A DNA stretch of 64,000 bases from Escherichia phage NRG-P0074. The stretch's first letter is position 1, and each line of letters begins with the position of its first letter. The position numbers and the translations under genes were made by a program. The stretch lies in sequence record PQ480333.1; one strand, 5' to 3'. Below the pieces are notes generated by a model. The model was not told where the DNA came from, ran no database searches, and worked only from the letters and a program-made list of their open reading frames with translations. Positions 13,944 through 36,661 of this stretch are shown piece by piece.

Positions 13944-14168
13944 AACAAATGGAGAACAAAATGAAACTTTTGCTTATCGCTTATGTTGTAGTACAATACA
14001 ATTATCCGATGTTTACGTATAACATGGTAAATGGTGTAATGAATCTTATTGAAGCGAGTATGGTAAAATGACCTGTGAAATGGATCTTATTTAATTTTTA
14101 TAGAAATCAGGTTGATGCTCGTCAGAATGATTTGGTGAATTTTGTTGAAACTTTAATTGGTGAATAAT

Positions 14169-14699
14169 ATGAAAACTGTAATTGAAACGACTGAGTTGTT
14201 TGGTGATTTATGTATCGAAAAACGTGGTTATGCGTACGTTCTGACGCAAGAAGATGATGTTGTTACTATTCTTCCTATGGAACTAGACAAGATTTTGAAA
14301 CTCAATCCACCAGGTCATGCATCTGTAATTAACATTGATGAAGACCTCCAAGTTCGTTTTTATCACGGACTTTATAGTGGGGTTAATATCGAAACCGAAG
14401 ACGAATGTTTTTCTATTAATAATTGGAAAACATTTGTCACTAAGGTGAAAGAATTCATGGAATCTGAAACAGCCAAAAAGGCCAAACTTCAATGGGCTAA
14501 ATGCCGTAATGCTTTTATTACAAATCAGGACCGCCCTGACTATACAACAGTCCTAGGCGTTAATCCTTCTTATGAAGATGGTGATGTCGTAGTTATTCGC
14601 CAAATTGATGACCTTCGTCAACATATCATTACATTAGACAAAGATGAAGCAGTTGCTCTTAAAGCTTATCTCGATTCTATTATCCCAACTTTGAAATAA
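14169..14699 (+). CDS. hypothetical protein
   Basis: 176 aa ORF from ATG 14169. Confidence 0.5.
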   Translation: MKTVIETTELFGDLCIEKRGYAYVLTQEDDVVTILPMELDKILKLNPPGHASVINIDEDLQVRFYHGLYSGVNIETEDECFSINNWKTFVTKVKEFMESETAKKAKLQWAKCRNAFITNQDRPDYTTVLGVNPSYEDGDVVVIRQIDDLRQHIITLDKDEAVALKAYLDSIIPTLK

Positions 14700-14708
14700 G
14701 GAATTATT

Positions 14709-15185
14709 ATGATTATCAATGAAAACTCTTGGCACTTTAAAATTTATGCCGCGTTCAATAGTACATGGAATCGTCCGAAAACGTTATGTGCTTATTTTTG
14801 GAAAACGTTTCTCCCGGTATTGGCTGCTTCAATTATTGGATTTGCGATTTTAGCAGCAGTCACAATCATTGGCCAGGAAATTTTAACTAAATTCTTTGTT
14901 TTTAGCAGTCTATGGACATTAGTTCTGGCTTCAATTGGTGTAGGCATTTTAATGGTAGCAGTCATGGCTTTTATTGCTACCGGGTTGGTAATTGGTCCGT
15001 CTTGGTTGTTAGACAAATATAACGACAGAAAATATTATAAAGAAATTGAGCTCATTGCACAAAACCAAGAACGAATTAAAAATGGACTTGAGCCTATTGA
15101 ACGTAAGAAATCGATTATCGTTGAATTTTTAAAAGCTCGTAAAGCTAAAGTGTGTCCTACTCTTGAATACAAGCCAGGCAAATGA
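14709..15185 (+). CDS. hypothetical membrane protein
   Basis: Several hydrophobic helices; 158 aa. Confidence 0.5.
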   Translation: MIINENSWHFKIYAAFNSTWNRPKTLCAYFWKTFLPVLAASIIGFAILAAVTIIGQEILTKFFVFSSLWTLVLASIGVGILMVAVMAFIATGLVIGPSWLLDKYNDRKYYKEIELIAQNQERIKNGLEPIERKKSIIVEFLKARKAKVCPTLEYKPGK

Positions 15186-15964
15186 ATTATATCAAATGTT
15201 ATGATGCAATAATTCAACGAGGAAAACTTAGAGGCAGTGATAAGTCTGAGTTGAATTATTATACTGAATCCCATCACATAATCCCTTCATGTATTGGAGG
15301 GAGTGATGACCCGAGTAATAAAGTTTTATTGACTGCCAGGGAACATTTTATCGCTCATTGGTTATTATCAAAAATTCACCCAAACTCTGAAGGATTGATT
15401 TACGCTTACTGGGCGTTCTATAATTTAGGCGAAGATGCTTTAGGACGAAATCTTAAATTAACCTCAAGAGGCTATAAAGACGTAAGGGAAAAGTTTTCAG
15501 AAATTCACTCTAATAGAATGAAAGATATATGGGAATCACAAGAATATCGTGATAAGCGTTCAGCGACCATGAGCCTCCCTGAGATAAAGGCTAAAATGTC
15601 AGATTCTCAAATAGAGGCACAGAATAGACCTGAAGTTAAAGCAAAAATATCTACTGCTATCAAAGAGGCCTTTAAGAGAGATGATGTTAAAGAACGGCAT
15701 TCAAGAGCTGTTAAAAAGGCCCTAGATAATCCAGAAACTAAAAAGAGACAGTCTGAAGCGTCTAAAGCTAGACAACGAACTGGTAAACACTGGGAAGATT
15801 ATGATATGCTTTACGAACTTTGGATTAAATTGAATCGACCTAAGCGTGGGGCTTTCGGAACCTATATTAGTAAAATGGGTTATCCTAAATCAAATTACCA
15901 ACGCTTAATATTACAGTTCATTGAAGATTATGAAAGGAAAGTGAATAATGAAAACGATTGTTAA
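15182..15964 (+). CDS. HNH homing endonuclease (Mob family), free-standing mobile gene
   Basis: HNH motif ESHHIIPSCIGGSDDPSNKVLLTAREHFIAH; position equals T4 mobD between rI and nrdC.x. Confidence 0.8.
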   Translation: MNYIKCYDAIIQRGKLRGSDKSELNYYTESHHIIPSCIGGSDDPSNKVLLTAREHFIAHWLLSKIHPNSEGLIYAYWAFYNLGEDALGRNLKLTSRGYKDVREKFSEIHSNRMKDIWESQEYRDKRSATMSLPEIKAKMSDSQIEAQNRPEVKAKISTAIKEAFKRDDVKERHSRAVKKALDNPETKKRQSEASKARQRTGKHWEDYDMLYELWIKLNRPKRGAFGTYISKMGYPKSNYQRLILQFIEDYERKVNNENDC

Positions 15965-16934
15965 GGCTTACTTTGGTAGCCACCTTTATGGAACGTCTAC
16001 TCCTGAATCTGACGTCGATTTTAAAGAAATTTATGTCCCTCATGCTCGTGATATTTTGACCGGTAACGTTAAAGAACATATGAGCAAGAACACGAATAAC
16101 ACATCTTCTAAGAACACAAAAGACGACGTGGACCATGAGTTATATAGTCTCAAATATTTCTTTAAACTAGCTGCAGATGGTGAAACTGTCGCATTAGATA
16201 TGCTTCACACTCCACCAAGTCTAGTAGTTAAATCTGATTTGCCTGATGTATGGAAGTATATTCAAGATAACAGGTCTCGTTTCTATACCACTAACATGAA
16301 ATCTTATTTAGGGTATGTCCGTAAGCAAGCTTCTAAATACGGTGTCAAGGGTTCTCGACTGGCTGTTCTTCGTCAAGCCCTTAAACGTTCTAATGAATGG
16401 GGACAATACTTTGATAATGGTGCAGTAATTCGTTTATCACATATGAAGAATGTTCTGCCTGTAGGTGAATTTGCTTCATGGGTTGAAACCGAAAACGAGA
16501 AAACAGGTAAGCAAACATTCTATAATCTGTTAGACCGTAAATTCCAAGACACGTTAACCAATAAAGAGTTCAATGCCGTCCTGGTTAAACTTGAAGAGAA
16601 CTATGGTGAACGTGCTCGTAAGGCAGAAGCCAACGAAGGTATTGACTGGAAAGCATTGAGTCATGCATGTCGTGGTGGACTTCAACTATTGGAAATTTAC
16701 AAAACCGGCGACCTGGTTTACCCGCTTCAGGATGCTCCATTTATTCTCGATGTTAAGCTTGGTAAACATACGTTTAAAACCGTACAGGAATTCCTAGAAG
16801 ATATCGTTGACCAAGTTGAACATGCAGCAGAACAAGCTGCTAAGAACGGTATGCAACAAAAAGTAGATATGAGTTTCTGGGATGACTTCCTTGAACAAGT
16901 CTACTTAGAAAACCACAATTCGTACTATAAATGA
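15948..16934 (+). CDS. predicted nucleotidyltransferase (pol-beta superfamily)
   Basis: Classic GS-x10-DVD motif (AYFGSHLYGTSTPESDVDF); 328 aa. Confidence 0.6.
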   Translation: MKTIVKAYFGSHLYGTSTPESDVDFKEIYVPHARDILTGNVKEHMSKNTNNTSSKNTKDDVDHELYSLKYFFKLAADGETVALDMLHTPPSLVVKSDLPDVWKYIQDNRSRFYTTNMKSYLGYVRKQASKYGVKGSRLAVLRQALKRSNEWGQYFDNGAVIRLSHMKNVLPVGEFASWVETENEKTGKQTFYNLLDRKFQDTLTNKEFNAVLVKLEENYGERARKAEANEGIDWKALSHACRGGLQLLEIYKTGDLVYPLQDAPFILDVKLGKHTFKTVQEFLEDIVDQVEHAAEQAAKNGMQQKVDMSFWDDFLEQVYLENHNSYYK

Positions 16935-16935
16935 T

Positions 16936-16955
16936 AAGGGCCTTCGGGCCCTTTA
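16936..16955 (+). terminator. intrinsic terminator / stem-loop
   Basis: GGGCC-TTCG-GGCCC followed by TTT. Confidence 0.5.
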
Positions 16956-16982
16956 GGGGGTCAAAATATTTTTAAAAAGTAG

Positions 16983-17018
16983 TGTACATGCTTTTAGGAT
17001 ATGTTATTATAGACCTAT
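16983..17018 (+). promoter_or_regulatory. early promoter (GTGTAC -35 variant, TATTATAGACCTATC -10 module)
   Basis: Conserved TGTTATTATAGACCTATC element shared with 17262, 18739, 53667. Confidence 0.5.
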
Positions 17019-17040
17019 CAAAACAAGAGGAGAAAACAAA

Positions 17041-17259
17041 ATGAAAACCAAAATGTTAGAAATGATTCGTGAAGCTGGTGATAAAGGTCTTATGGTTAAC
17101 ACTCGTGATGCAGACCAACGTCAAGCATTCGGTGAACTGAAAGCTAAAGGTCTAGTTAAAGCATCCTTAGGAATCGGTAATGCATTACGAGTCACCTTAA
17201 CCCCAGCCGGTAAAGCAGTGTTCTTTCAACCTCTTACCAAAAAATCTCGTCGCAAATAA
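17041..17259 (+). CDS. hypothetical protein
   Basis: 72 aa; RBS AGAGGAG. Confidence 0.5.
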   Translation: MKTKMLEMIREAGDKGLMVNTRDADQRQAFGELKAKGLVKASLGIGNALRVTLTPAGKAVFFQPLTKKSRRK

Positions 17260-17261
17260 TT

Positions 17262-17300
17262 GTTTACTTTTGCTTTAAACATGTTATTATAGACCTATCG
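17262..17300 (+). promoter_or_regulatory. early promoter
   Basis: GTTTAC 17262-17267; TGTTATTATAGACCTATC 17282-17299. Confidence 0.5.
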
Positions 17301-17329
17301 AAACGAAATGAGTAAATTTGGAGAATAAA

Positions 17330-18310
17330 ATGTTCAACGTTCAAATCAAAAAAGGTATCTATCGTAATAACGAAATCTCTGGTTCTTATGTTGCCACAAA
17401 GACATGGTTCCCGGCAAAGCTTAATCCTGAATGTTCCCACTTAGGTGACGGTAAAATTTTCGTTATGATTGATGGTTCTGAACGTGGAGTATGGGTCTTC
17501 AAACCAGACATCGTAATGGAAGGAGTTGAGACATCACCAGTTGCAGTTGTTGAAAGCACTGAAGATATGAAAACTCGTATCAACAAACGCTTTAAAGTAA
17601 TGAACATGATGACGAATGGTATTATCGATGGCAAAATTCGTTCACTCATTATTTCAGGTGCAGCCGGTATTGGTAAGACGTATTCTCTGGATAAAGCACT
17701 TAATAATGCTAATGATAATGGTTTCATCAAATACAAAAGCATTAATGGTAAAATCTCTGGTATTGGCCTTTACGAACAACTTTGGCTCAACCGTGATGCA
17801 TACAGCGTTCTCTTAATCGACGACGTTGATGTATTCTCAGATATGGACATCTTGAACCTTCTTAAAGCAGCATTAGATACCGGAGATAAACGCAAAGTTT
17901 GTTGGAGCACTGCGTCATCTTATCTCGATGATAAGGGTATTGATAAAGAATTTGAGTTTGAAGGTACTATCGTTTTCATTACAAACGTTGATATCGATAA
18001 AGAGTTAGAACGCGGTTCGAAACTTGCTCCGCACCTTCAAGCTTTAGTATCTCGTTCAGTGTATTTGGACCTTGGAGTACACTCTAATGAAGAGATTATG
18101 GTTCGAGTTGAAGATGTAATATTATCTACTGACATGATGCAGAAACGTGGCCTGACGGATGCAGAAACGTATAAAGCATTGTCCTGGATGAAGGCTAACG
18201 TATCTCGTCTTCGCAATGTATCATTACGTACGGCTCTTTATGTAGCAGATTTTATTTCAACTGATAAAGATGGTTGGGAGGAAATCTCTGAAGTAACTTT
18301 ACTGAAATAA
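17330..18310 (+). CDS. AAA+ ATPase
   Basis: Walker A GAAGIGKT, Walker B LLIDDVD; ATG 17330 after RBS GGAGAA. Confidence 0.65.
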   Translation: MFNVQIKKGIYRNNEISGSYVATKTWFPAKLNPECSHLGDGKIFVMIDGSERGVWVFKPDIVMEGVETSPVAVVESTEDMKTRINKRFKVMNMMTNGIIDGKIRSLIISGAAGIGKTYSLDKALNNANDNGFIKYKSINGKISGIGLYEQLWLNRDAYSVLLIDDVDVFSDMDILNLLKAALDTGDKRKVCWSTASSYLDDKGIDKEFEFEGTIVFITNVDIDKELERGSKLAPHLQALVSRSVYLDLGVHSNEEIMVRVEDVILSTDMMQKRGLTDAETYKALSWMKANVSRLRNVSLRTALYVADFISTDKDGWEEISEVTLLK

Positions 18311-19382: not shown

Positions 19383-20378
19383 ATGAGCATTACATCTGAT
19401 GCGGTAAAACATGAAATTAACGGTTTATGTGCTTCACAGATTAAAGTGTGGTTTAAAGACCATAATGATCGCAGAGCACTTAATTATGAACAAATTGCTA
19501 TCCAAGTTCATCAATTACTGGTTAGTAAATTTGATTTTCATATGCCGTCTGAAATCTATACTAATCTACCGCGAGCGCTTATTAAAGCATGTAAAGGTTA
19601 CGGAAAATCAATGGCCGATGGAATCTTCAGCGCGCTGAATAAACTTAACGTTCTGTCGATGATTAACTCTAACAATATCCTGCGTAATTTAGGACGTACT
19701 GATTTGTTCGGTCGTGAACAGGGTAAAATGCCTTTGAAATGGATTGTTGCTCATCTTAACGAGAACCAAACACGTTTTCTGGCCGTATCAGCACGTTTAC
19801 AAATGGGCTTAGATCGTCAGATGAACTTTAAAACTCATCCACGTTATTCAGGTTCAACAGACTTTTATAAATGTGAGCTTCAAAAGGTCAGTGGCAAAAC
19901 CGTCTTAGTAGTTCGTGTAACGTTTGAAGGACGACGTCAAGGATATTTTAACCTAATCGGCTCTGGTCTTAAACATTGTGGATTTATCGACGAAGTTGAT
20001 ATCAAGCGAGACGGCACTGGATATCGTATTGGATATGTTTGTACTCTTAAAGAAGAGATTTTAGGACCAGCTCCAGGACTAAAAGACGTTAGATATAAAG
20101 ACGAGCTCGTTGAAGAAATAAAAGAAGTTGAATATGATATCAACCAAGAAGATGCTCTTAAAGACCTTATTGATGAACTGAATCAAGACGTTATTCCGGT
20201 TCAGAAATTTGAATCAAAACATGCTGAGCAAATCAAATACTTTGAAGCTTTGATTAACGAACTTAATGTAACTATTCAACAGACTGACGATGAAATCTCA
20301 CGATTAGCAGGCTTAAACGGTAAAAATAAAACAGAACGAGCTAATCTTATTCAAGTAGTAAAACTTCTTAAGGAATGA
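19383..20378 (+). CDS. hypothetical protein with C-terminal coiled coil
   Basis: 331 aa; own promoter-like TTATAAT upstream. Confidence 0.55.
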   Translation: MSITSDAVKHEINGLCASQIKVWFKDHNDRRALNYEQIAIQVHQLLVSKFDFHMPSEIYTNLPRALIKACKGYGKSMADGIFSALNKLNVLSMINSNNILRNLGRTDLFGREQGKMPLKWIVAHLNENQTRFLAVSARLQMGLDRQMNFKTHPRYSGSTDFYKCELQKVSGKTVLVVRVTFEGRRQGYFNLIGSGLKHCGFIDEVDIKRDGTGYRIGYVCTLKEEILGPAPGLKDVRYKDELVEEIKEVEYDINQEDALKDLIDELNQDVIPVQKFESKHAEQIKYFEALINELNVTIQQTDDEISRLAGLNGKNKTERANLIQVVKLLKE

Positions 20379-20408
20379 TGTACAACCAAGGATGGTTGGA
20401 GTATAATA
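20377..20408 (+). promoter_or_regulatory. early promoter module ACAACCAAGGATGGTTGGAGTATAAT (copy 1)
   Basis: CAACCA/TGGTTG inverted repeat plus TATAAT 20403-20408; near-identical copy at 21394-21428. Confidence 0.5.
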
Positions 20409-20433
20409 AATTTTTCAACATGAGGAATATAAA

Positions 20434-21393
20434 ATGGCTTTTATTACACGTAGAGAACTTATCAAAGAATTTACCTCGAACGCATATACTCCAGGACCTA
20501 ATCCTATCCGTATGCCTGTAAAGACTCCTGAAGAGATTGAGGAAATCTGTTCATATTATGGGATTACTTCTCGTAAGTTTACTCAATTTGAATGCGTTAC
20601 TAACACACCCGTTAAAGAGTTCATTAAAAATGGTGAGTTCAGCCGTTTATTAGCCAAACAGAAACTTCGTAATTTTTGTATTGGTGGTGAAGGACAATAT
20701 TTCGCTAAGCAGTTCCGGAATAACCTTAACAATCTGATGGCCATTGCTTCTCGTATTCGTCCTCAAGCAATTAACATGAAACATTTGAAATATACTTACG
20801 ATAAGTTAGAAATCATGGTTATCAGTGAGAACGAGTTCACTCTTACGTATAAACCTAAGAATGATAACGTTGCTCGTGTATTCCACCAAGCGTTGGAAGT
20901 TTTAGGTGATAATATCCACCAGATTAAAGCAATTTATTCTCGTGAGCTTAATATTATCGACCCTATCAAGAATAAGGGCCATATCGCTATCCAGGCTCGT
21001 GTATCTATTGGTAAAAAGGTTCCTGCGCCATGGTGGCACAAAGACTCTGAATACTATCAAAATCTTAAAAAGGAAAATGCATTGTTTGAAGCATCGCTTA
21101 CTGGGACCCCAATTGAACAGGCCGAAGTCCTAAGTGCTTATTCTACTTCGGGTAAATCAATGTTTAAAGGTTTGCCAAATGTGTGCAAACTGTCTGCAGT
21201 AAAACTAAATGTTTCTAATGACCTTCTTCCGGCCGAAGATTACCGTTACAATCAAATCAAGGCCACTATGGACCAACTGTCTGTTGAACTTGACAAAGCA
21301 CAAGCTAAGCTTCGTGATGCTCAAAGTGTTGTAACGAATCTCCAGTTGCAGTATTCTAAACTTTTTAACGCAATGAATGCGTTAAAATCATAA
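20434..21393 (+). CDS. hypothetical protein with C-terminal coiled coil
   Basis: 319 aa. Confidence 0.55.
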   Translation: MAFITRRELIKEFTSNAYTPGPNPIRMPVKTPEEIEEICSYYGITSRKFTQFECVTNTPVKEFIKNGEFSRLLAKQKLRNFCIGGEGQYFAKQFRNNLNNLMAIASRIRPQAINMKHLKYTYDKLEIMVISENEFTLTYKPKNDNVARVFHQALEVLGDNIHQIKAIYSRELNIIDPIKNKGHIAIQARVSIGKKVPAPWWHKDSEYYQNLKKENALFEASLTGTPIEQAEVLSAYSTSGKSMFKGLPNVCKLSAVKLNVSNDLLPAEDYRYNQIKATMDQLSVELDKAQAKLRDAQSVVTNLQLQYSKLFNAMNALKS

Positions 21394-21428
21394 AATAGTT
21401 TACAACCAAGGATGGTTGGAGTATAATG
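21388..21428 (+). promoter_or_regulatory. early promoter module (copy 2)
   Basis: GTTTAC 21388-21393, CAACCAAGGATGGTTGG, TATAAT 21423-21428. Confidence 0.55.
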
Positions 21429-21455
21429 AATCTATCTTAACGAGAGGAAAATATT

Positions 21456-22406
21456 ATGACACGTTCACATTACATTGAATACTTTGCAGGTCTTATCGCT
21501 AACGTTCATGCCCAACGTGCTTCTGGTGCACTAGGATTTGATGTTCCACACCGAGATGTAGTAAGTGGTATTCTTCGCGATTTTGGTACATACATAGGCC
21601 AAGAAAATCATATCTGTAAAGATACTCAAAATGCGTATTCTCATTCGTTAGGGACGTTGCTTCAATGGTTCAAACGTTCTCGTTTATTATCTTCTACTGT
21701 AGCTCGCGATAACATTAAAAACTTTATGAAGCCGAGCTTTATTAAATCTGTGACATCTAAAACCGATTTGGTTGAATTCACTATTGTTAATGATGTTAAA
21801 AAGACTCATTTGGCTGATTGGTTAACTACCATTCCTGAAACTAAATTTGCTGATAAATTTGCTTGTGAATTCAATAACCAAGTGAATATGCTTTTTAAAC
21901 ATTCTCGTAAATTATTCACAGGCGGCGATGATCGTACAAATACAGTTCATGCTAAAGATTGGGTTACTGCAGTGTTCAAACCAACCGGTAATGGTACCGC
22001 ATCATTATCAATTGATATTCAGGTTCCTTATTATTACTCACGTAATCTCGGCACCATGAAAGCTGAAGAAATTAAGAAGCACAATAAAACCATTCGTTCG
22101 CTGTCTTATAAACTTCGCATGATGTTAAGAATCATGGACGTGGTAGAAATGTATGATGAAACCGAAGATAATGGTTCAATGTTATACAGTTCTCGCATTC
22201 AAATTAAGTTGAAGAACCCTAACGAGTATAAGCCTAAGCCTATTAAAGAGCCTAAAGCAGAAAAAGTTGATAACTTAAGAGAAGAACGCGAATATCTCAA
22301 ATCTCGTCTGAAAGAAGTCGAAGCCCAGATTGCAGAACAAACTAAATCGTTAAAAGCTCTGAATGCGAAAGCGGATGGTTTACGAAATGCCATTGAGGTG
22401 TTATAA
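21456..22406 (+). CDS. hypothetical protein with C-terminal coiled coil
   Basis: 316 aa. Confidence 0.55.
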   Translation: MTRSHYIEYFAGLIANVHAQRASGALGFDVPHRDVVSGILRDFGTYIGQENHICKDTQNAYSHSLGTLLQWFKRSRLLSSTVARDNIKNFMKPSFIKSVTSKTDLVEFTIVNDVKKTHLADWLTTIPETKFADKFACEFNNQVNMLFKHSRKLFTGGDDRTNTVHAKDWVTAVFKPTGNGTASLSIDIQVPYYYSRNLGTMKAEEIKKHNKTIRSLSYKLRMMLRIMDVVEMYDETEDNGSMLYSSRIQIKLKNPNEYKPKPIKEPKAEKVDNLREEREYLKSRLKEVEAQIAEQTKSLKALNAKADGLRNAIEVL

Positions 22407-33393: not shown

Positions 33394-34244
33394 AGAATTT
33401 TAAACTTGATATTAATGACGAATTTTTAATAAAGGAATTAGTTGAAAAATTAGTGTTGAGCGAAGAAGACGCCAAGTCTTACATTAATTTTATTTCTATG
33501 AATTCAACTGTTAAAACTCCGGGTAAAACGGAAGCACATCACGTGCTTCCTAAATCAATATTTCCTGAATATTTAAAATCTACATGGAATTTAGTTAATT
33601 TAAGTCATTTTAATCATTTCAAAGCACATTTCTTATTAGCAAAAGGTAAAAATGGAAAAATGCTAAATGCTTTAAATAGAATGATGTCAGGAAAAACATA
33701 TAAAAATTTATCTTTAGCCGAAGTTGATTTAATAGCTGCTGAATATAGTTTTATAAGACAAGATGTAAGTGACACAATATCAAAAAGGCTTCAACAATAT
33801 TATTCAAATCCGCAAAATAGAAATGCTGCTAGAGAAAGGGCATTAAAATATTTTTCAGTAGCAAAAAATAGGAAAGATAACAAAGAAAGATTAAATAATT
33901 TTAAAACAAAACAAAAAATTTCAATGGCTTCAAGGGAATGGTTTAATAACGAAGAAAATAAAATTAAACACCAAAAGGCTGTTCGTGCTGCTTTATCAAA
34001 ACCTGAATATAAAATAGCTATATCAAATTCAGTAGCTGCTAGTTGGAAAAATCCGGAGATTAGAAAAGCTCATATAGCATCTCGACGAAAAGGCTATCAT
34101 TGGGATAATAAAGATAAATTGTATGAATTGTGGATATCATATAATCGTCCTAAACATGTGATGTTTAGGAAAATGTTAGTTAAGAATGGATATCCAATAG
34201 AGGCTTCATTACAGGCTTTAGTTAAAGAATTTTCTTCATTGTGA
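33390..34244 (+). CDS. HNH homing endonuclease (Mob-like), free-standing mobile gene
   Basis: HNH motif TEAHHVLPKS...NLVNLSHFNHFKAH; AT-rich (Lys/Asn-rich) relative to neighbours; inserted between 47 and 46. Confidence 0.75.
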   Translation: MKNFKLDINDEFLIKELVEKLVLSEEDAKSYINFISMNSTVKTPGKTEAHHVLPKSIFPEYLKSTWNLVNLSHFNHFKAHFLLAKGKNGKMLNALNRMMSGKTYKNLSLAEVDLIAAEYSFIRQDVSDTISKRLQQYYSNPQNRNAARERALKYFSVAKNRKDNKERLNNFKTKQKISMASREWFNNEENKIKHQKAVRAALSKPEYKIAISNSVAASWKNPEIRKAHIASRRKGYHWDNKDKLYELWISYNRPKHVMFRKMLVKNGYPIEASLQALVKEFSSL

Positions 34245-35948: not shown

Positions 35949-36661
35949 TGAGGCTTATATTTACAATTATCGAAATGCCAACGATGCATATTAGCAGGGA
36001 TCCCTATTTTATCGCAATGAGGACATTTAATTTTCTTGTCCTCTTTTTTCTTTCTGTTAGGATTTGATTTACAGAATTTTATATGTGGCTTTAACGCCGA
36101 TAACTTAGTAGTTAAGCCACAAAACGGGCAAGAATCTTCTTTCCAAATTTTCGTGGCCATGGTTTTAATTATTTTATCTTTTGTTTCTTGATCAAGTTTT
36201 ACTATTTTAGGCGTTGGACCTTGTTTACAATTATCAAAATGCCAACGTCGCATGTTTCCTTCAGTTCCAGTTAAACCACAATGTGGACAGGTAATCTTTG
36301 GTTTATTTTTTGCAGACTCGGACATTTTCTTACGGGTTTCAGCAGTGAATTCTTTATTCTTTTGAACTTCTTGATTCTTACGTCGAAGCCATCCAAATAA
36401 TTTGTTTTTGCTTCTATCTGCTTTAGGAGATGATATGGTCATCATACGAGCGGCATATATTAAAGAGGCATTATCTGGATGGATTTTTACCAACAGTTGA
36501 TGTGCCAAATAATGTTCTTCCGGTGTTAAGTCTACTAAGTTTAAAGCATCATCACTTCCACCTAAACATTGTGGTATAATGTGATGACGTTCTGTATAAC
36601 CATCTAAACTTCTTGATTTAGCATTGGTGATAAGCTTTTCGTATATTGAGTTATAATTCAT
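35945..36661 (-). CDS. HNH homing endonuclease with three C-terminal zinc-finger repeats, free-standing mobile gene
   Basis: Minus strand; HNH motif ERHHIIPQCLGGSDD...EEHYLAH; repeats CPHCG...WHFDNCK; convergent with gene 46 (4-bp overlap). Confidence 0.8.
   Translation of the reverse strand: MNYNSIYEKLITNAKSRSLDGYTERHHIIPQCLGGSDDALNLVDLTPEEHYLAHQLLVKIHPDNASLIYAARMMTISSPKADRSKNKLFGWLRRKNQEVQKNKEFTAETRKKMSESAKNKPKITCPHCGLTGTEGNMRRWHFDNCKQGPTPKIVKLDQETKDKIIKTMATKIWKEDSCPFCGLTTKLSALKPHIKFCKSNPNRKKKEDKKIKCPHCDKIGIPANMHRWHFDNCKYKPH

What the first reader, a model, noticed from the sequence alone, without database searches (positions are those of the whole stretch)
15948..18310. Nucleotidyltransferase plus AAA+ ATPase pair of unknown function
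The 328-aa protein carries a textbook pol-beta nucleotidyltransferase motif (GSHLYGTSTPESDVD), the arrangement seen in minimal NTases and CD-NTases. It is followed (after a 72-aa ORF) by an AAA+ ATPase (GAAGIGKT, LLIDDVD). Neither has an assigned role in T4-like biology that I can recall.
Basis: inference. Interest (0 to 1): 0.4.

Follow-up and report, generated by a model that had tools for sequence, protein, structure and literature searches.

The report
T4 nrdC.11 and nrdC.10 orthologues
These two genes are the RB69-type copies of the long-catalogued T4 genes nrdC.11 (a nucleotidyltransferase of the RNA-repair-linked RlaP family) and nrdC.10 (an uncharacterised AAA+ ATPase); they are neighbours by shared ancestry in one phage lineage, not a conserved two-gene system.

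Summary
A 328-aa Pol-beta nucleotidyltransferase (15948-16934), a 72-aa ORF (17041-17259) and an AAA+ ATPase (true start 17330, 326 aa, to 18310) are all present with intact motifs.

They are orthologues of T4 nrdC.11 and nrdC.10 (about 78% aa identity to T4; NrdC.11 98.5% to RB69). Both domain assignments were published in 2006.

NrdC.11 passes the Pfam RlaP (PF10127) threshold. A 2025 preprint shows bacterial RlaP adds 1-2 nucleotides to RNA 3'-OH ends of cleaved tRNA, and names T4 NrdC.11 as an RlaP of unknown function. It is not a CD-NTase or a minimal NTase.

The two genes are not a conserved module:
- They are adjacent only in Tevenvirinae and Acinetobacter-type T4-like phages.
- A terminator-like hairpin separates them, and nrdC.10 has its own early-type promoter.
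- The gap varies from 112 to 2284 nt.
- Each gene occurs widely without the other.

Bacterial NrdC.11-like genes sit in Hen1-Pnkp or Ro60-RtcB RNA-repair operons, usually next to a canonical RlaP. Distant NrdC.10 relatives sit between uvsY and uvsW.

Best reading: NrdC.11 is an RNA-end add-back enzyme working with phage Pnk and Rnl1, and NrdC.10 is a separate replication/recombination-associated ATPase. Neither function has been tested. Interest is modest.

The parts
15182..15964 (+). MobD-like HNH homing endonuclease. It is context only, and overlaps the NTase start by 17 nt as in T4.
   Evidence: phrog_655 'homing endonuclease' at E 1e-55 and a weak Pfam HNH hit. 74% identical to T4 MobD. 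Present in only some relatives.
15948..16934 (+). NrdC.11 orthologue: a Pol-beta-fold nucleotidyltransferase from a divergent 'long' branch of the RlaP family (PF10127).
   Evidence: Pfam RlaP at 48.6 bits against a cut-off of 23, covering residues 6-137. 98.5% identical to RB69 nrdC.11 and 79% to T4. Catalytic G10, D22-x-D24, D62 and D84 are invariant, as is S11 in the 6-sequence alignment. AF2 model pLDDT 88.7, with an NTase domain plus a helical domain. Nearest solved folds are 3c18 and kanamycin NTase.
16936..16953 (+). GC-rich hairpin (GGGCC-TTCG-GGCCC) followed by a T-run. A terminator-like element sits immediately after the nrdC.11 stop.
   Evidence: Terminator scan and sequence. The same hairpin-plus-promoter layout occurs in the T4 nrdC.11/nrdC.10 gap.
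16974..17036 (+). Early-type promoter block, copy 1 (GTGTACA ... TATTAT), with the Shine-Dalgarno sequence for the 72-aa ORF.
   Evidence: Promoter scan. It is a 63-nt direct repeat with 17254-17316. It fits the published T4/PST PeSL consensus TTTACW-N17-TAYWAT (PMC4122927).
17041..17259 (+). 72-aa ORF of unknown function (phrog_6001). It is a sporadic insert between the two genes and is absent from T4.
   Evidence: phrog_6001 at E 1e-42, with no Pfam, NCBIfam or PADLOC hit. Found in only 4 of 82 NrdC.11 loci. T4 has a 114-nt gap at this position.
17254..17316 (+). Early-type promoter block, copy 2 (GTTTACT ... TATTAT), directly upstream of nrdC.10.
   Evidence: 71% identical to copy 1 over 63 nt, 280 nt apart. 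It aligns with the single T4 promoter.
17330..18310 (+). NrdC.10 orthologue: an AAA+ ATPase (phrog_1250) with an N-terminal beta domain (residues 1-63), an AAA+ core (77-250) and a helical lid (253-324).
   Evidence: phrog_1250 at E 1e-160. 77-78% identical to T4 NrdC.10. Invariant Walker A and B, N219, R242 and R300. AF2 pLDDT 89. Foldseek gives only generic AAA+ hits. Pfam gives only generic AAA models.

Best explanation
These are two independent early genes that happen to be neighbours in Tevenvirinae.

(1) NrdC.11 is a template-independent RNA 3'-end nucleotidyltransferase from a divergent, longer branch of the RlaP family. [quoted passage not shown] An example is the 5' half left when a host anticodon nuclease both cuts the tRNA and trims a nucleotide. 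This would happen after phage Pnk has healed the ends to 3'-OH and 5'-P, and before phage Rnl1 reseals the break. NrdC.11 would therefore extend the classical T4 tRNA-repair counter-defence.

(2) NrdC.10 is a catalytically competent AAA+ ATPase with its own promoter. Its family travels with the recombination and replication genes uvsY, uvsX and uvsW in distant phages. It most likely acts on DNA or on replication/recombination proteins, not with NrdC.11.

Shown here: gene identities, motifs, folds, family membership and genomic associations.
Inferred: the substrate and biological role of NrdC.11, and any role of NrdC.10.
For: NrdC.11:
- It is above threshold for Pfam RlaP, with the catalytic residues conserved.
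- Bacterial RlaP enzymes add 1-2 NMP to RNA 3'-OH. They prefer the 5' half of a cleaved-tRNA mimic, do not act on DNA or protein, and restore aminoacylation of a tRNA lacking one anticodon-loop nucleotide. The authors place T4 NrdC.11 in the family, in cluster 5.
- Of 80 bacterial loci encoding full-length NrdC.11-like proteins (33-42% identity), 33 have a canonical RlaP (266 bits) immediately downstream. In 17 of them, Pnkp, Hen1, RtcB or Ro60 lie within 6 kb. Typical operons are Hen1-Pnkp-NrdC11like-RlaP and Ro60-RtcB-NrdC11like-RlaP.
- RB69 encodes pseT and rnlA.
- Genus-level record counts of NrdC.11 track RnlA even where both fall below the gp32 control. Klebsiella: 286 and 287 of 323. 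Vibrio: 59 and 53 of 132. Neither is among the top ten for Synechococcus, where gp32 has 378 records.
- In the unrelated myovirus Slicko01, the NrdC.11-like gene overlaps the stop of a CCA-adding enzyme gene. That genome also has a Pnk, an RNA ligase and a tRNA cluster 6 kb upstream.
- In Ruegeria phage V10 the gene lies inside a tRNA cluster.
- The preprint notes that an RlaP product (3'-OH) suits 5'-phosphate ligases. T4 Rnl1 is such a ligase (established knowledge).

Independence of the two genes:
- A terminator-like hairpin and a separate promoter lie between them, and this layout is conserved in T4.
- The gap varies from 112 to 2284 nt.
- Among loci anchored on NrdC.10, NrdC.11 is nearby in only 4 of 84.
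- Among phage loci anchored on NrdC.11, NrdC.10 is absent from 37 of the 40 at 53% identity or less, and from 8 at 57-71%. It is absent from all 80 bacterial loci.
- None of the 84 NrdC.10 loci has an RNA-repair gene.

NrdC.10:
- In distant loci, UvsW lies downstream in 38, UvsY upstream in 25, and UvsX nearby in 12.
- In Vibrio phage D524 the gene lies among clamp, clamp-loader, dUTPase, helicase and RNase H genes.
- It has an SRC/SRS Arg-finger motif and weak PHROG clamp-loader hits.
Against: - No experiment exists for either phage protein.
- The NrdC.11 clade is only remotely similar to canonical RlaP. hhalign gives probability 55% and E 1e-4 over 88 columns of the NTase core, and the C-terminal halves do not align. 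Pfam covers only residues 6-137. Extrapolating activity from PfRlaP is therefore uncertain.
- In bacteria the long form usually accompanies a canonical RlaP, so its role may differ from that enzyme's.
- In T4-type phages nrdC.11 is about 80 kb from pseT and rnlA.
- tRNA-gene proximity is not significant against the control set (10 of 40 versus 12 of 81, p=0.21).
- The phyletic match to RnlA is at the level of genus counts, not per genome. In most genera both genes are simply near-universal.
- nrdC.11 is dispensable for T4 in the laboratory. This is compatible with a counter-defence role but does not prove one.
- For NrdC.10, conserved gene order may reflect ancestry rather than function. Foldseek and Pfam give no specific subfamily.
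Confidence: 0.5

Rival explanations
1. NrdC.11 and NrdC.10 (with or without the 72-aa ORF) form one functional module. For example, the ATPase could deliver or remodel the RNA substrate for the NTase.
For: The order NrdC.11 then NrdC.10 is kept in 41 of 82 NrdC.11-anchored phage loci. These include most enterobacterial Tevenvirinae and three Acinetobacter-type contigs at about 50% identity. Both are early-region genes on the same strand.
Against: A hairpin and an independent promoter lie between them. The gap is variable and insert-prone. Each gene is widely found without the other, in phages and in all 80 bacterial loci. Their genus-level distributions differ: Klebsiella 286 versus 149, Vibrio 59 versus 121. 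Slicko01 has the NTase, Pnk, a ligase and a CCA enzyme but no NrdC.10.
Confidence: 0.1
2. NrdC.11 works at the tRNA acceptor end. It would rebuild or extend damaged 3'-CCA termini, or mature phage or host tRNAs, alongside a CCA-adding enzyme. It would not fill anticodon-loop gaps.
For: It is translationally coupled to a class II CCA-adding or poly(A)-polymerase-type enzyme in Slicko01, and lies within 5 kb of one in Aeromonas phage ZPAH1. A CCA-type enzyme is present in 5 of 82 phage loci and 1 bacterial locus. In Ruegeria phage V10 it lies within a tRNA cluster. Bacterial RlaP also labels full-length tRNAs and rRNAs.
Against: The bacterial context is end-healing and ligase operons (Pnkp/Hen1, RtcB/Ro60), which deal with internal breaks. 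PfRlaP preferred the anticodon-side 3' end over the acceptor end in a cleaved-tRNA mimic. The window has no tRNA genes.
Confidence: 0.2
3. NrdC.11 nucleotidylates a protein or small molecule. For example, it could AMPylate a host HEPN-type toxin as MntA antitoxins do, modify an antibiotic-like compound, or make oligonucleotide signals like Hailong HalB.
For: The best Foldseek matches are kanamycin NTase/ANT(4'), an uncharacterised NTase (3c18), Hailong HalB and LinB. There is a very weak NCBIfam MntA hit (E 0.058).
Against: All these matches are weak (E 2e-3 or worse, TM 0.25-0.4) and reflect the shared Pol-beta fold. The MntA score is 13 bits against a cut-off of 60. Bacterial RlaP did not label proteins or DNA. 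Genomic associations are with RNA-repair genes.
Confidence: 0.08
4. NrdC.11 is a CD-NTase-like signalling enzyme or interferes with cyclic-nucleotide defences, as the first reader leaned towards.
For: Only the shared GS...DxD Pol-beta motif.
Against: It hits no PADLOC model and no Pfam family other than RlaP. No cGAS, DncV or CD-NTase structure appears among the top 50 Foldseek matches. No effector or cyclase-associated genes are nearby.
Confidence: 0.02

Closest known systems
T4 NrdC.11 / RB69 NrdC.11 (annotated 'nucleotidyltransferase')
   Same: Orthologue: 98.5% identical to RB69 and 79% to T4. It has the same neighbours (mobD upstream with a 17-nt overlap, nrdC.10 downstream) and the same hairpin and promoter after it.
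   Different: The window has a 72-aa ORF inserted between nrdC.11 and nrdC.10, flanked by a duplicated promoter block. T4 has a 114-nt gap there.
Bacterial RlaP (PF10127; PfRlaP and PaRlaP of Carruthers, Fatma & Huang 2025, bioRxiv 10.64898/2025.12.29.696909)
   Same: It shares the Pfam family, the Pol-beta catalytic residues, the overall NTase-plus-helical-domain architecture, and an association with RNA-ligase and end-healing operons in the bacterial members of its clade.
   Different: It belongs to a different sequence cluster (5 versus 1a). It is about 60-75 aa longer, with a beta insert at about residues 176-200. Only the N-terminal 88-130 residues align with canonical RlaP. In bacteria it occurs next to, not instead of, a canonical RlaP. 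Its activity is untested.
T4 Pnk + Rnl1 tRNA repair pathway (Amitsur, Levitz & Kaufmann 1987, as cited)
   Same: It would act on the same kind of substrate (host tRNA cut by an anticodon nuclease) and needs the 3'-OH/5'-P ends that this pathway makes. It is co-distributed with rnlA at genus level.
   Different: It is not adjacent to pseT or rnlA. No genetic evidence links it to the pathway. It would add a gap-filling step that the classical pathway lacks.
T4 NrdC.10 (phrog_1250)
   Same: Orthologue at 77-78% identity, with the same position and promoter.
   Different: None of note.
Clamp-loader-clade AAA+ ATPases (gp44/RFC, RarA-type)
   Same: It has Walker A and B, sensor 1, an SRC-type Arg finger (SRS here, SRC in distant relatives) and sensor 2. 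There are weak PHROG hits to clamp-loader families. Its neighbourhood in distant phages is replication and recombination genes.
   Different: It hits no clamp-loader Pfam model. Foldseek ranks dynein, NSF, ORC, Hda, NtrC1 and RuvB equally with RFC. It has an extra N-terminal beta domain and a 30-residue insert before sensor 1. The phage already has gp44/gp62-type loaders in related genomes.

Membership tests
RlaP (Pfam PF10127, RNA-ligase-associated Pol-beta NTase) | Sequence scores above the curated PF10127 threshold | tested here: met
   48.6 bits against a cut-off of 23, E 1e-12, but only residues 6-137 match profile positions 23-145 of 249. All homologues carry a precomputed PF10127 assignment.
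RlaP (Pfam PF10127, RNA-ligase-associated Pol-beta NTase) | Pol-beta catalytic set: G[GS] motif plus three acidic residues | tested here: met
   G10, D22, D24, D60/D62 and D84 are invariant in 47 sequences at about 40% identity. S11, G10, D22, D24 and D62 are also invariant in the 6-sequence alignment down to 27% identity.
RlaP (Pfam PF10127, RNA-ligase-associated Pol-beta NTase) | N-terminal NTase domain plus C-terminal helical domain homologous to that of canonical RlaP | tested here: inconclusive
   The AF2 model has an NTase domain followed by a helical domain, as described for PfRlaP. However, hhalign aligns only 88 N-terminal columns with canonical RlaP, and no RlaP structure is in the PDB copy for comparison.
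RlaP (Pfam PF10127, RNA-ligase-associated Pol-beta NTase) | Gene neighbourhood with RNA ligase or end-healing genes | tested here: met
   Met for the clade: 17 of 80 bacterial loci have Pnkp, Hen1, RtcB or Ro60 within 6 kb, and 33 of 80 have a canonical RlaP adjacent. Not met locally: in the phage, pseT and rnlA are about 80 kb away and outside the window.
RlaP (Pfam PF10127, RNA-ligase-associated Pol-beta NTase) | Adds 1-2 NMP to the RNA 3'-OH, with a Mn2+ preference | not testable with these tools
   Activity is known only for PfRlaP and PaRlaP.
CD-NTase / cGAS-DncV-like (CBASS cyclases) | Match to CD-NTase sequence models | tested here: not met
   No PADLOC model matches. Pfam gives only RlaP.
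CD-NTase / cGAS-DncV-like (CBASS cyclases) | cGAS/DncV-type fold | tested here: not met
   The top 50 Foldseek PDB matches are KNTase/ANT, 3c18, HalB, LinB, AadA and Tam41. No CD-NTase is among them.
Minimal NTase (MNT/MntA antitoxin) | Small (about 100-140 aa) NTase matching MNT/MntA models, paired with a HEPN gene | tested here: not met
   The protein is 328 aa. MntA scores 13.3 bits against a cut-off of 60. None of the nine neighbouring ORFs scanned gave a HEPN match.
AAA+ ATPase superfamily (NrdC.10) | Walker A and B, sensor 1, Arg finger, sensor 2, and an alpha-beta-alpha core plus helical lid | tested here: met
   G110-x2-G-x-GK116T, D164-D165, N219, R242 and R300 are invariant. The model and Foldseek probability of 1.0 to many AAA+ proteins agree. 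However, Pfam AAA models score below their gathering cut-offs for the window protein.
Clamp-loader clade of AAA+ (NrdC.10) | SRC Arg-finger box and specific similarity to RFC, gp44 or DnaX | tested here: inconclusive
   The motif is SRS here and SRC in distant relatives. phrog_168 'clamp loader' scores E 2e-4 over 90 residues. No clamp-loader Pfam family matches in 44 members. RFC is not preferred by Foldseek.

The most novel reading that the evidence does not exclude
NrdC.11 is the missing gap-filling step of the T4-type tRNA repair pathway. After a nucleotide-excising anticodon nuclease (RloC-type) removes the wobble base, Pnk heals the ends, NrdC.11 adds a nucleotide back, and Rnl1 seals the break. 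This would let T4-like phages defeat a host defence thought to be repair-proof. The 'long' NrdC.11-type enzyme would be a functionally distinct partner of canonical RlaP in bacterial Pnkp/Hen1 and RtcB/Ro60 operons. Separately, NrdC.10 could be an unrecognised AAA+ component of the UvsX/UvsY/UvsW recombination machinery.
Probability: 0.3. Interest if true: 0.65.

Novelty: already known. Interest (0 to 1): 0.3.

Why it matters
T4's Pnk and Rnl1 repair of PrrC-cut tRNA-Lys is the founding example of RNA repair as a phage counter-defence. RloC-type nucleases, which also excise a nucleotide, were proposed to make that repair futile.

If NrdC.11 restores the missing nucleotide, nearly all enterobacterial T4-like phages would carry an answer to that defence. 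A gene catalogued for decades as 'nrdC.11, unknown', and often mislabelled 'thioredoxin', would gain a role.

The hypothesis can be tested directly with existing mutants and enzymes. Showing that the NTase and the ATPase are not a module also prevents a misleading 'two-gene system' annotation.

Tried and rejected
- Sequence and profile searches of the PDB for both proteins found nothing relevant. The best hits were USP16 or Ogg-like chance matches, and Cdc6 at E 0.08.
- Foldseek against the PDB gave no specific relative for either protein. The PfRlaP crystal structure is evidently not in this copy.
- BFVD returned only uncharacterised relatives of NrdC.10.
- NCBIfam and PADLOC had no meaningful hits.
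- The first homologous-protein run on NrdC.11 returned 120 near-identical sequences and was useless for modelling. A distant member had to be used as the query instead.
- Enrichment of tRNA genes near distant NrdC.11 genes looked suggestive (V10, Slicko01) but is not significant against the NrdC.10-locus control (p=0.21).
- The genus-count match between NrdC.11 and RnlA is largely explained by both being near-universal in enterobacterial T4-likes (gp32 control). Only Klebsiella, Vibrio and Synechococcus are informative.
- Pfam did not confirm the Slicko01 'RNA ligase'. PHROGs did (phrog_968).
- Burroughs & Aravind 2016 (NAR 44:8525) could not be read because it is not held. It is cited only through the preprint.
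- The CD-NTase, minimal-NTase and operon readings were considered and rejected, as set out above.
- Rfam and tRNA scans of the window found nothing.


Full report
**What is there.**
The window is from an RB69-like T4-type phage (Straboviridae, Mosigvirus-like). The 4.4-kb stretch around the finding is 96% identical to Escherichia phages a20 and BEU50. The + strand carries, in order:
- a MobD-like HNH homing endonuclease (15182-15964);
- a 328-aa protein (15948-16934);
- a 72-aa ORF (17041-17259);
- a 330-aa ORF from a TTG at 17318, ending at 18310.

The 328-aa protein is 98.5% identical to RB69 NrdC.11 and 79% to T4 NrdC.11. The last ORF is 77-78% identical to T4 NrdC.10. T4 has the same order, mobD-nrdC.11-nrdC.10-nrdC.9. 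The AAA+ gene almost certainly starts at the ATG at 17330 (326 aa). The homologues listed are mostly 321-337 aa, the PHROG profile starts at residue 5, and a GGAG precedes that ATG.

Yes.
- The NTase matches Pfam RlaP (PF10127) at 48.6 bits against a cut-off of 23, and phrog_388 at E 6e-126.
- G10, D22-x-D24, D60/D62 and D84 are invariant in 47 relatives at about 40% identity. S11 is invariant in the 6-sequence alignment that reaches 27% identity.
- The ATPase has invariant Walker A (GxxGxGKT), Walker B (DDxD), sensor-1 N219, R242 (SRS here, SRC in distant relatives) and sensor-2 R300 across 44 relatives at 32-54% identity.
- Its AlphaFold model (pLDDT 89) has an N-terminal beta domain, an AAA+ core and a helical lid.

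**What was already known.**
- Nolan et al. 2006 (PMC1524935) reported the AAA match of nrdC.10 and the COG3541 NTase match of nrdC.11.
- A CRISPR genome-reduction study deleted nrdC.11-mobD.3 from T4 without loss of viability (PMC9825161).
- PF10127 was named RlaP (RNA-ligase-associated Pol-beta) by Burroughs and Aravind 2016, as cited.
- Carruthers, Fatma and Huang (bioRxiv, December 2025) characterised two Pseudomonas RlaP enzymes. They add one or two NMPs to RNA 3'-OH ends, prefer Mn2+, and do not act on DNA or protein. They prefer the anticodon-side end of a cleaved-tRNA mimic, and they restore aminoacylation of a tRNA missing one anticodon-loop nucleotide. The authors propose RlaP as an antidote to nucleotide-excising ribotoxins such as RloC. 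They explicitly mark T4 NrdC.11 as an RlaP of unknown function in a separate cluster (5 versus 1a).
- I found no paper on the function of NrdC.10.

**Are the two genes a system?**
The evidence says no.

Locally:
- The nrdC.11 stop is followed at once by a GC hairpin with a UUCG loop and a T-run (16936-16953).
- An early-type promoter follows. T4 has the same hairpin-promoter unit in its 114-nt gap.
- In the window the promoter block is duplicated (16974-17036 and 17254-17316; 63 nt, 71% identity) on either side of the 72-aa ORF.
- This is the signature of the promoter-early stem-loop (PeSL) cassettes that shuffle ORFs in T4-type genomes (PMC2839356, PMC4122927).
- nrdC.10 therefore has its own promoter downstream of a terminator-like element.

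Comparatively:
- Among 84 loci anchored on NrdC.10 relatives (4 annotated phages plus 80 IMG/VR contigs), an NrdC.11 gene lies in the flanks only in T4 and three enterobacterial T4-likes.
- Among 82 loci anchored on NrdC.11 relatives, NrdC.10 follows in most Tevenvirinae and in three Acinetobacter-type contigs, at gaps of 112-2284 nt. It is absent from eight contigs at 57-71% identity and from nearly all at 53% or less.
- None of 80 bacterial loci with a full-length NrdC.11-like gene has an NrdC.10 relative.
- Record counts in the phage database also diverge: Klebsiella 286 versus 149, Vibrio 59 versus 121.

**What does each gene travel with?**

NrdC.11 clade in bacteria (33-42% identity, full length; Desulfobacterales, Nitrospirota, Asticcacaulis, Acetobacteraceae and others):
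- 33 of 80 loci have a canonical 255-277-aa RlaP (PF10127, up to 266 bits) immediately downstream.
- 17 of 80 have Pnkp, Hen1, RtcB or Ro60/TROVE within 6 kb.
- Typical operons are Hen1-Pnkp-[NrdC.11-like]-RlaP and Ro60-RtcB-[NrdC.11-like]-RlaP.
- These are the textbook bacterial RNA-repair systems.

Distance from canonical RlaP:
- The NrdC.11 clade and its canonical neighbours are only remotely related. hhalign gives probability 55% and E 1e-4 over 88 columns of the NTase core.
- NrdC.11 is therefore a distinct long paralogue, not a copy of the characterised enzyme.
- Canonical RlaP occurs in 86 phage records, mostly jumbo phages of Pseudomonas, Caulobacter, Brevundimonas and Burkholderia. 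No Escherichia record is among them.

NrdC.11 clade in phages:
- RB69 encodes Pnk (pseT) and Rnl1 (rnlA) about 80 kb away. Neither is in the window.
- Genus-level counts of NrdC.11 and RnlA are within a few records of each other in seven genera. A gp32 control shows this is mostly because both are near-universal in enterobacterial T4-likes.
- The two also co-vary where they are not universal. In Klebsiella the counts are 286 and 287 against 323 for gp32. In Vibrio they are 59 and 53 against 132. In Synechococcus, gp32 has 378 records and neither gene reaches the top ten.
- In the unrelated 141-kb myovirus Slicko01, the NrdC.11-like gene overlaps the stop of a class II CCA-adding-type enzyme gene. 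That genome also has a Pnk (38% identical to RB69's), an RNA ligase (phrog_968) and a 13-tRNA cluster 6 kb upstream. It has no NrdC.10.
- In Ruegeria phage V10 the gene sits inside a tRNA cluster.
- tRNA proximity as a general rule is not significant against the control loci (p=0.21).

NrdC.10 family:
- In distant (31-42% identity) viral contigs, the recurrent neighbours are a UvsW helicase downstream (38 loci), UvsY upstream (25) and UvsX (12).
- In Vibrio phage D524 the gene lies among clamp, clamp-loader, regA, dUTPase, helicase and RNase H genes.
- None of the 84 loci has an RNA-repair gene.
- Foldseek finds only generic AAA+ similarity: dynein, NSF, ORC1, Hda, RFC, NtrC1 and RuvB, with TM about 0.4.
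- Pfam gives only generic AAA models for 44 members.
- BFVD finds only uncharacterised phage relatives, reaching Roseobacter phage RDJL Phi 1.

**Structure of NrdC.11.**
- The model (pLDDT 88.7) has an N-terminal Pol-beta domain, a helical C-terminal domain and a small beta insert around residues 176-200.
- The nearest solved folds are an uncharacterised Exiguobacterium NTase (3c18), kanamycin NTase/ANT(4'), Hailong HalB and LinB. All are weak matches (E 2e-3 or worse, TM 0.25-0.4).
- No CD-NTase appears among them, and PADLOC and NCBIfam give nothing.

**Most likely mechanism.**

NrdC.11 (inferred; about 0.5 for RNA-end add-back in repair):
1. A host nuclease cuts and trims a tRNA.
2. Phage Pnk converts the ends to 3'-OH and 5'-P.
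3. [quoted passage not shown]
4. Rnl1, a 5'-phosphate ligase that needs exactly these ends, seals the break.

The preprint notes that RlaP products are incompatible with RtcB but fit 5'-phosphate ligases. The T4 enzyme set avoids that problem.

NrdC.10 (inferred, weaker): an independent ATPase acting in DNA replication or recombination.

**Verdict.**
It misses that these are catalogued T4 genes, that the NTase belongs to a family with known biochemistry, and that the pairing is lineage-specific synteny.

As a finding it is already known, and interest is modest. What has value is a sharpened, directly testable hypothesis for NrdC.11, plus two contextual observations that I did not see described in the papers I could read:
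- the long-RlaP plus canonical-RlaP tandems in bacterial repair operons;
- the uvsY-AAA+-uvsW arrangement in distant T4-like contigs.

Noticed in passing
window 16936-17316: The 72-aa ORF (phrog_6001) is bracketed by two copies of an early-promoter block (63 nt, 71% identity, 280 nt apart) downstream of a UUCG hairpin. T4 has one hairpin-plus-promoter and no ORF here. This looks like a PeSL-type mobile ORF cassette insertion. Across relatives the nrdC.11/nrdC.10 junction varies from 112 to 2284 nt, so it appears to be an insertion hot spot.
   Followed up: partly
L209, L229, L231, L244 (Hen1-Pnkp-NrdC11like-RlaP); L223, L236 (Ro60-RtcB-NrdC11like-RlaP): In bacteria, a long NrdC.11-type NTase and a canonical RlaP form a tandem pair (gap about 20-60 nt) in 33 of 80 loci, often inside Pnkp/Hen1 or RtcB/Ro60 RNA-repair operons. 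The two are only remotely related (hhalign probability 55%). This suggests two non-redundant NTases, or a heteromer, in these systems.
   Followed up: partly
L010-L085 (e.g. L046 8001-13103, L050 744-2709): Distant NrdC.10 relatives (31-42% identity, carrying a canonical SRC motif) in environmental T4-like contigs sit between uvsY and uvsW, with uvsX nearby. In T4 itself uvsY and uvsW are near each other (my recollection, not checked here), while nrdC.10 lies in the nrdC-mobD region.
   Followed up: partly
public records under: Many GenBank and UniRef records label both NrdC.10 and NrdC.11 orthologues 'thioredoxin'. This appears to be an annotation error propagated from the gene names nrdC.10 and nrdC.11, since NrdC itself is the thioredoxin.
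   Followed up: no
L130 5083-6156, L145 10471-11934, L088 12033-14936, L249 41180-43639: In Aeromonas-, Vibrio- and Klebsiella-type phages and in Slicko01, the NrdC.11-like gene lies near NAD+ salvage genes: an NMNAT-Nudix fusion in 12 of 40 loci, plus NAMPT/NAPRTase and PRPP synthetase. HD phosphohydrolases, a macro-domain/phosphatase-like protein and a ProQ-like protein are also nearby.
   Followed up: no
window 33528-34232 (+) and 36452-36661 (-): Two further stretches resemble the MobD-like homing endonuclease (31% over 241 aa; 53% over 75 aa). These are additional HNH homing-endonuclease genes or remnants in the window.
   Followed up: no
window 14157-14699 and 20434-21393: Neighbouring genes include a y05I-like putative transcription factor (Pfam T4_y05I_N and T4_y05I_C, the MobD.1 orthologue) and a DUF7235 protein. 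The three roughly 320-aa ORFs at 19383-22406 (phrog_2257, 2351, 1435) have no known function.
   Followed up: no
window 1-64000: No tRNA genes (ARAGORN) and no Rfam family at gathering threshold occur anywhere in the 64-kb window.
   Followed up: yes
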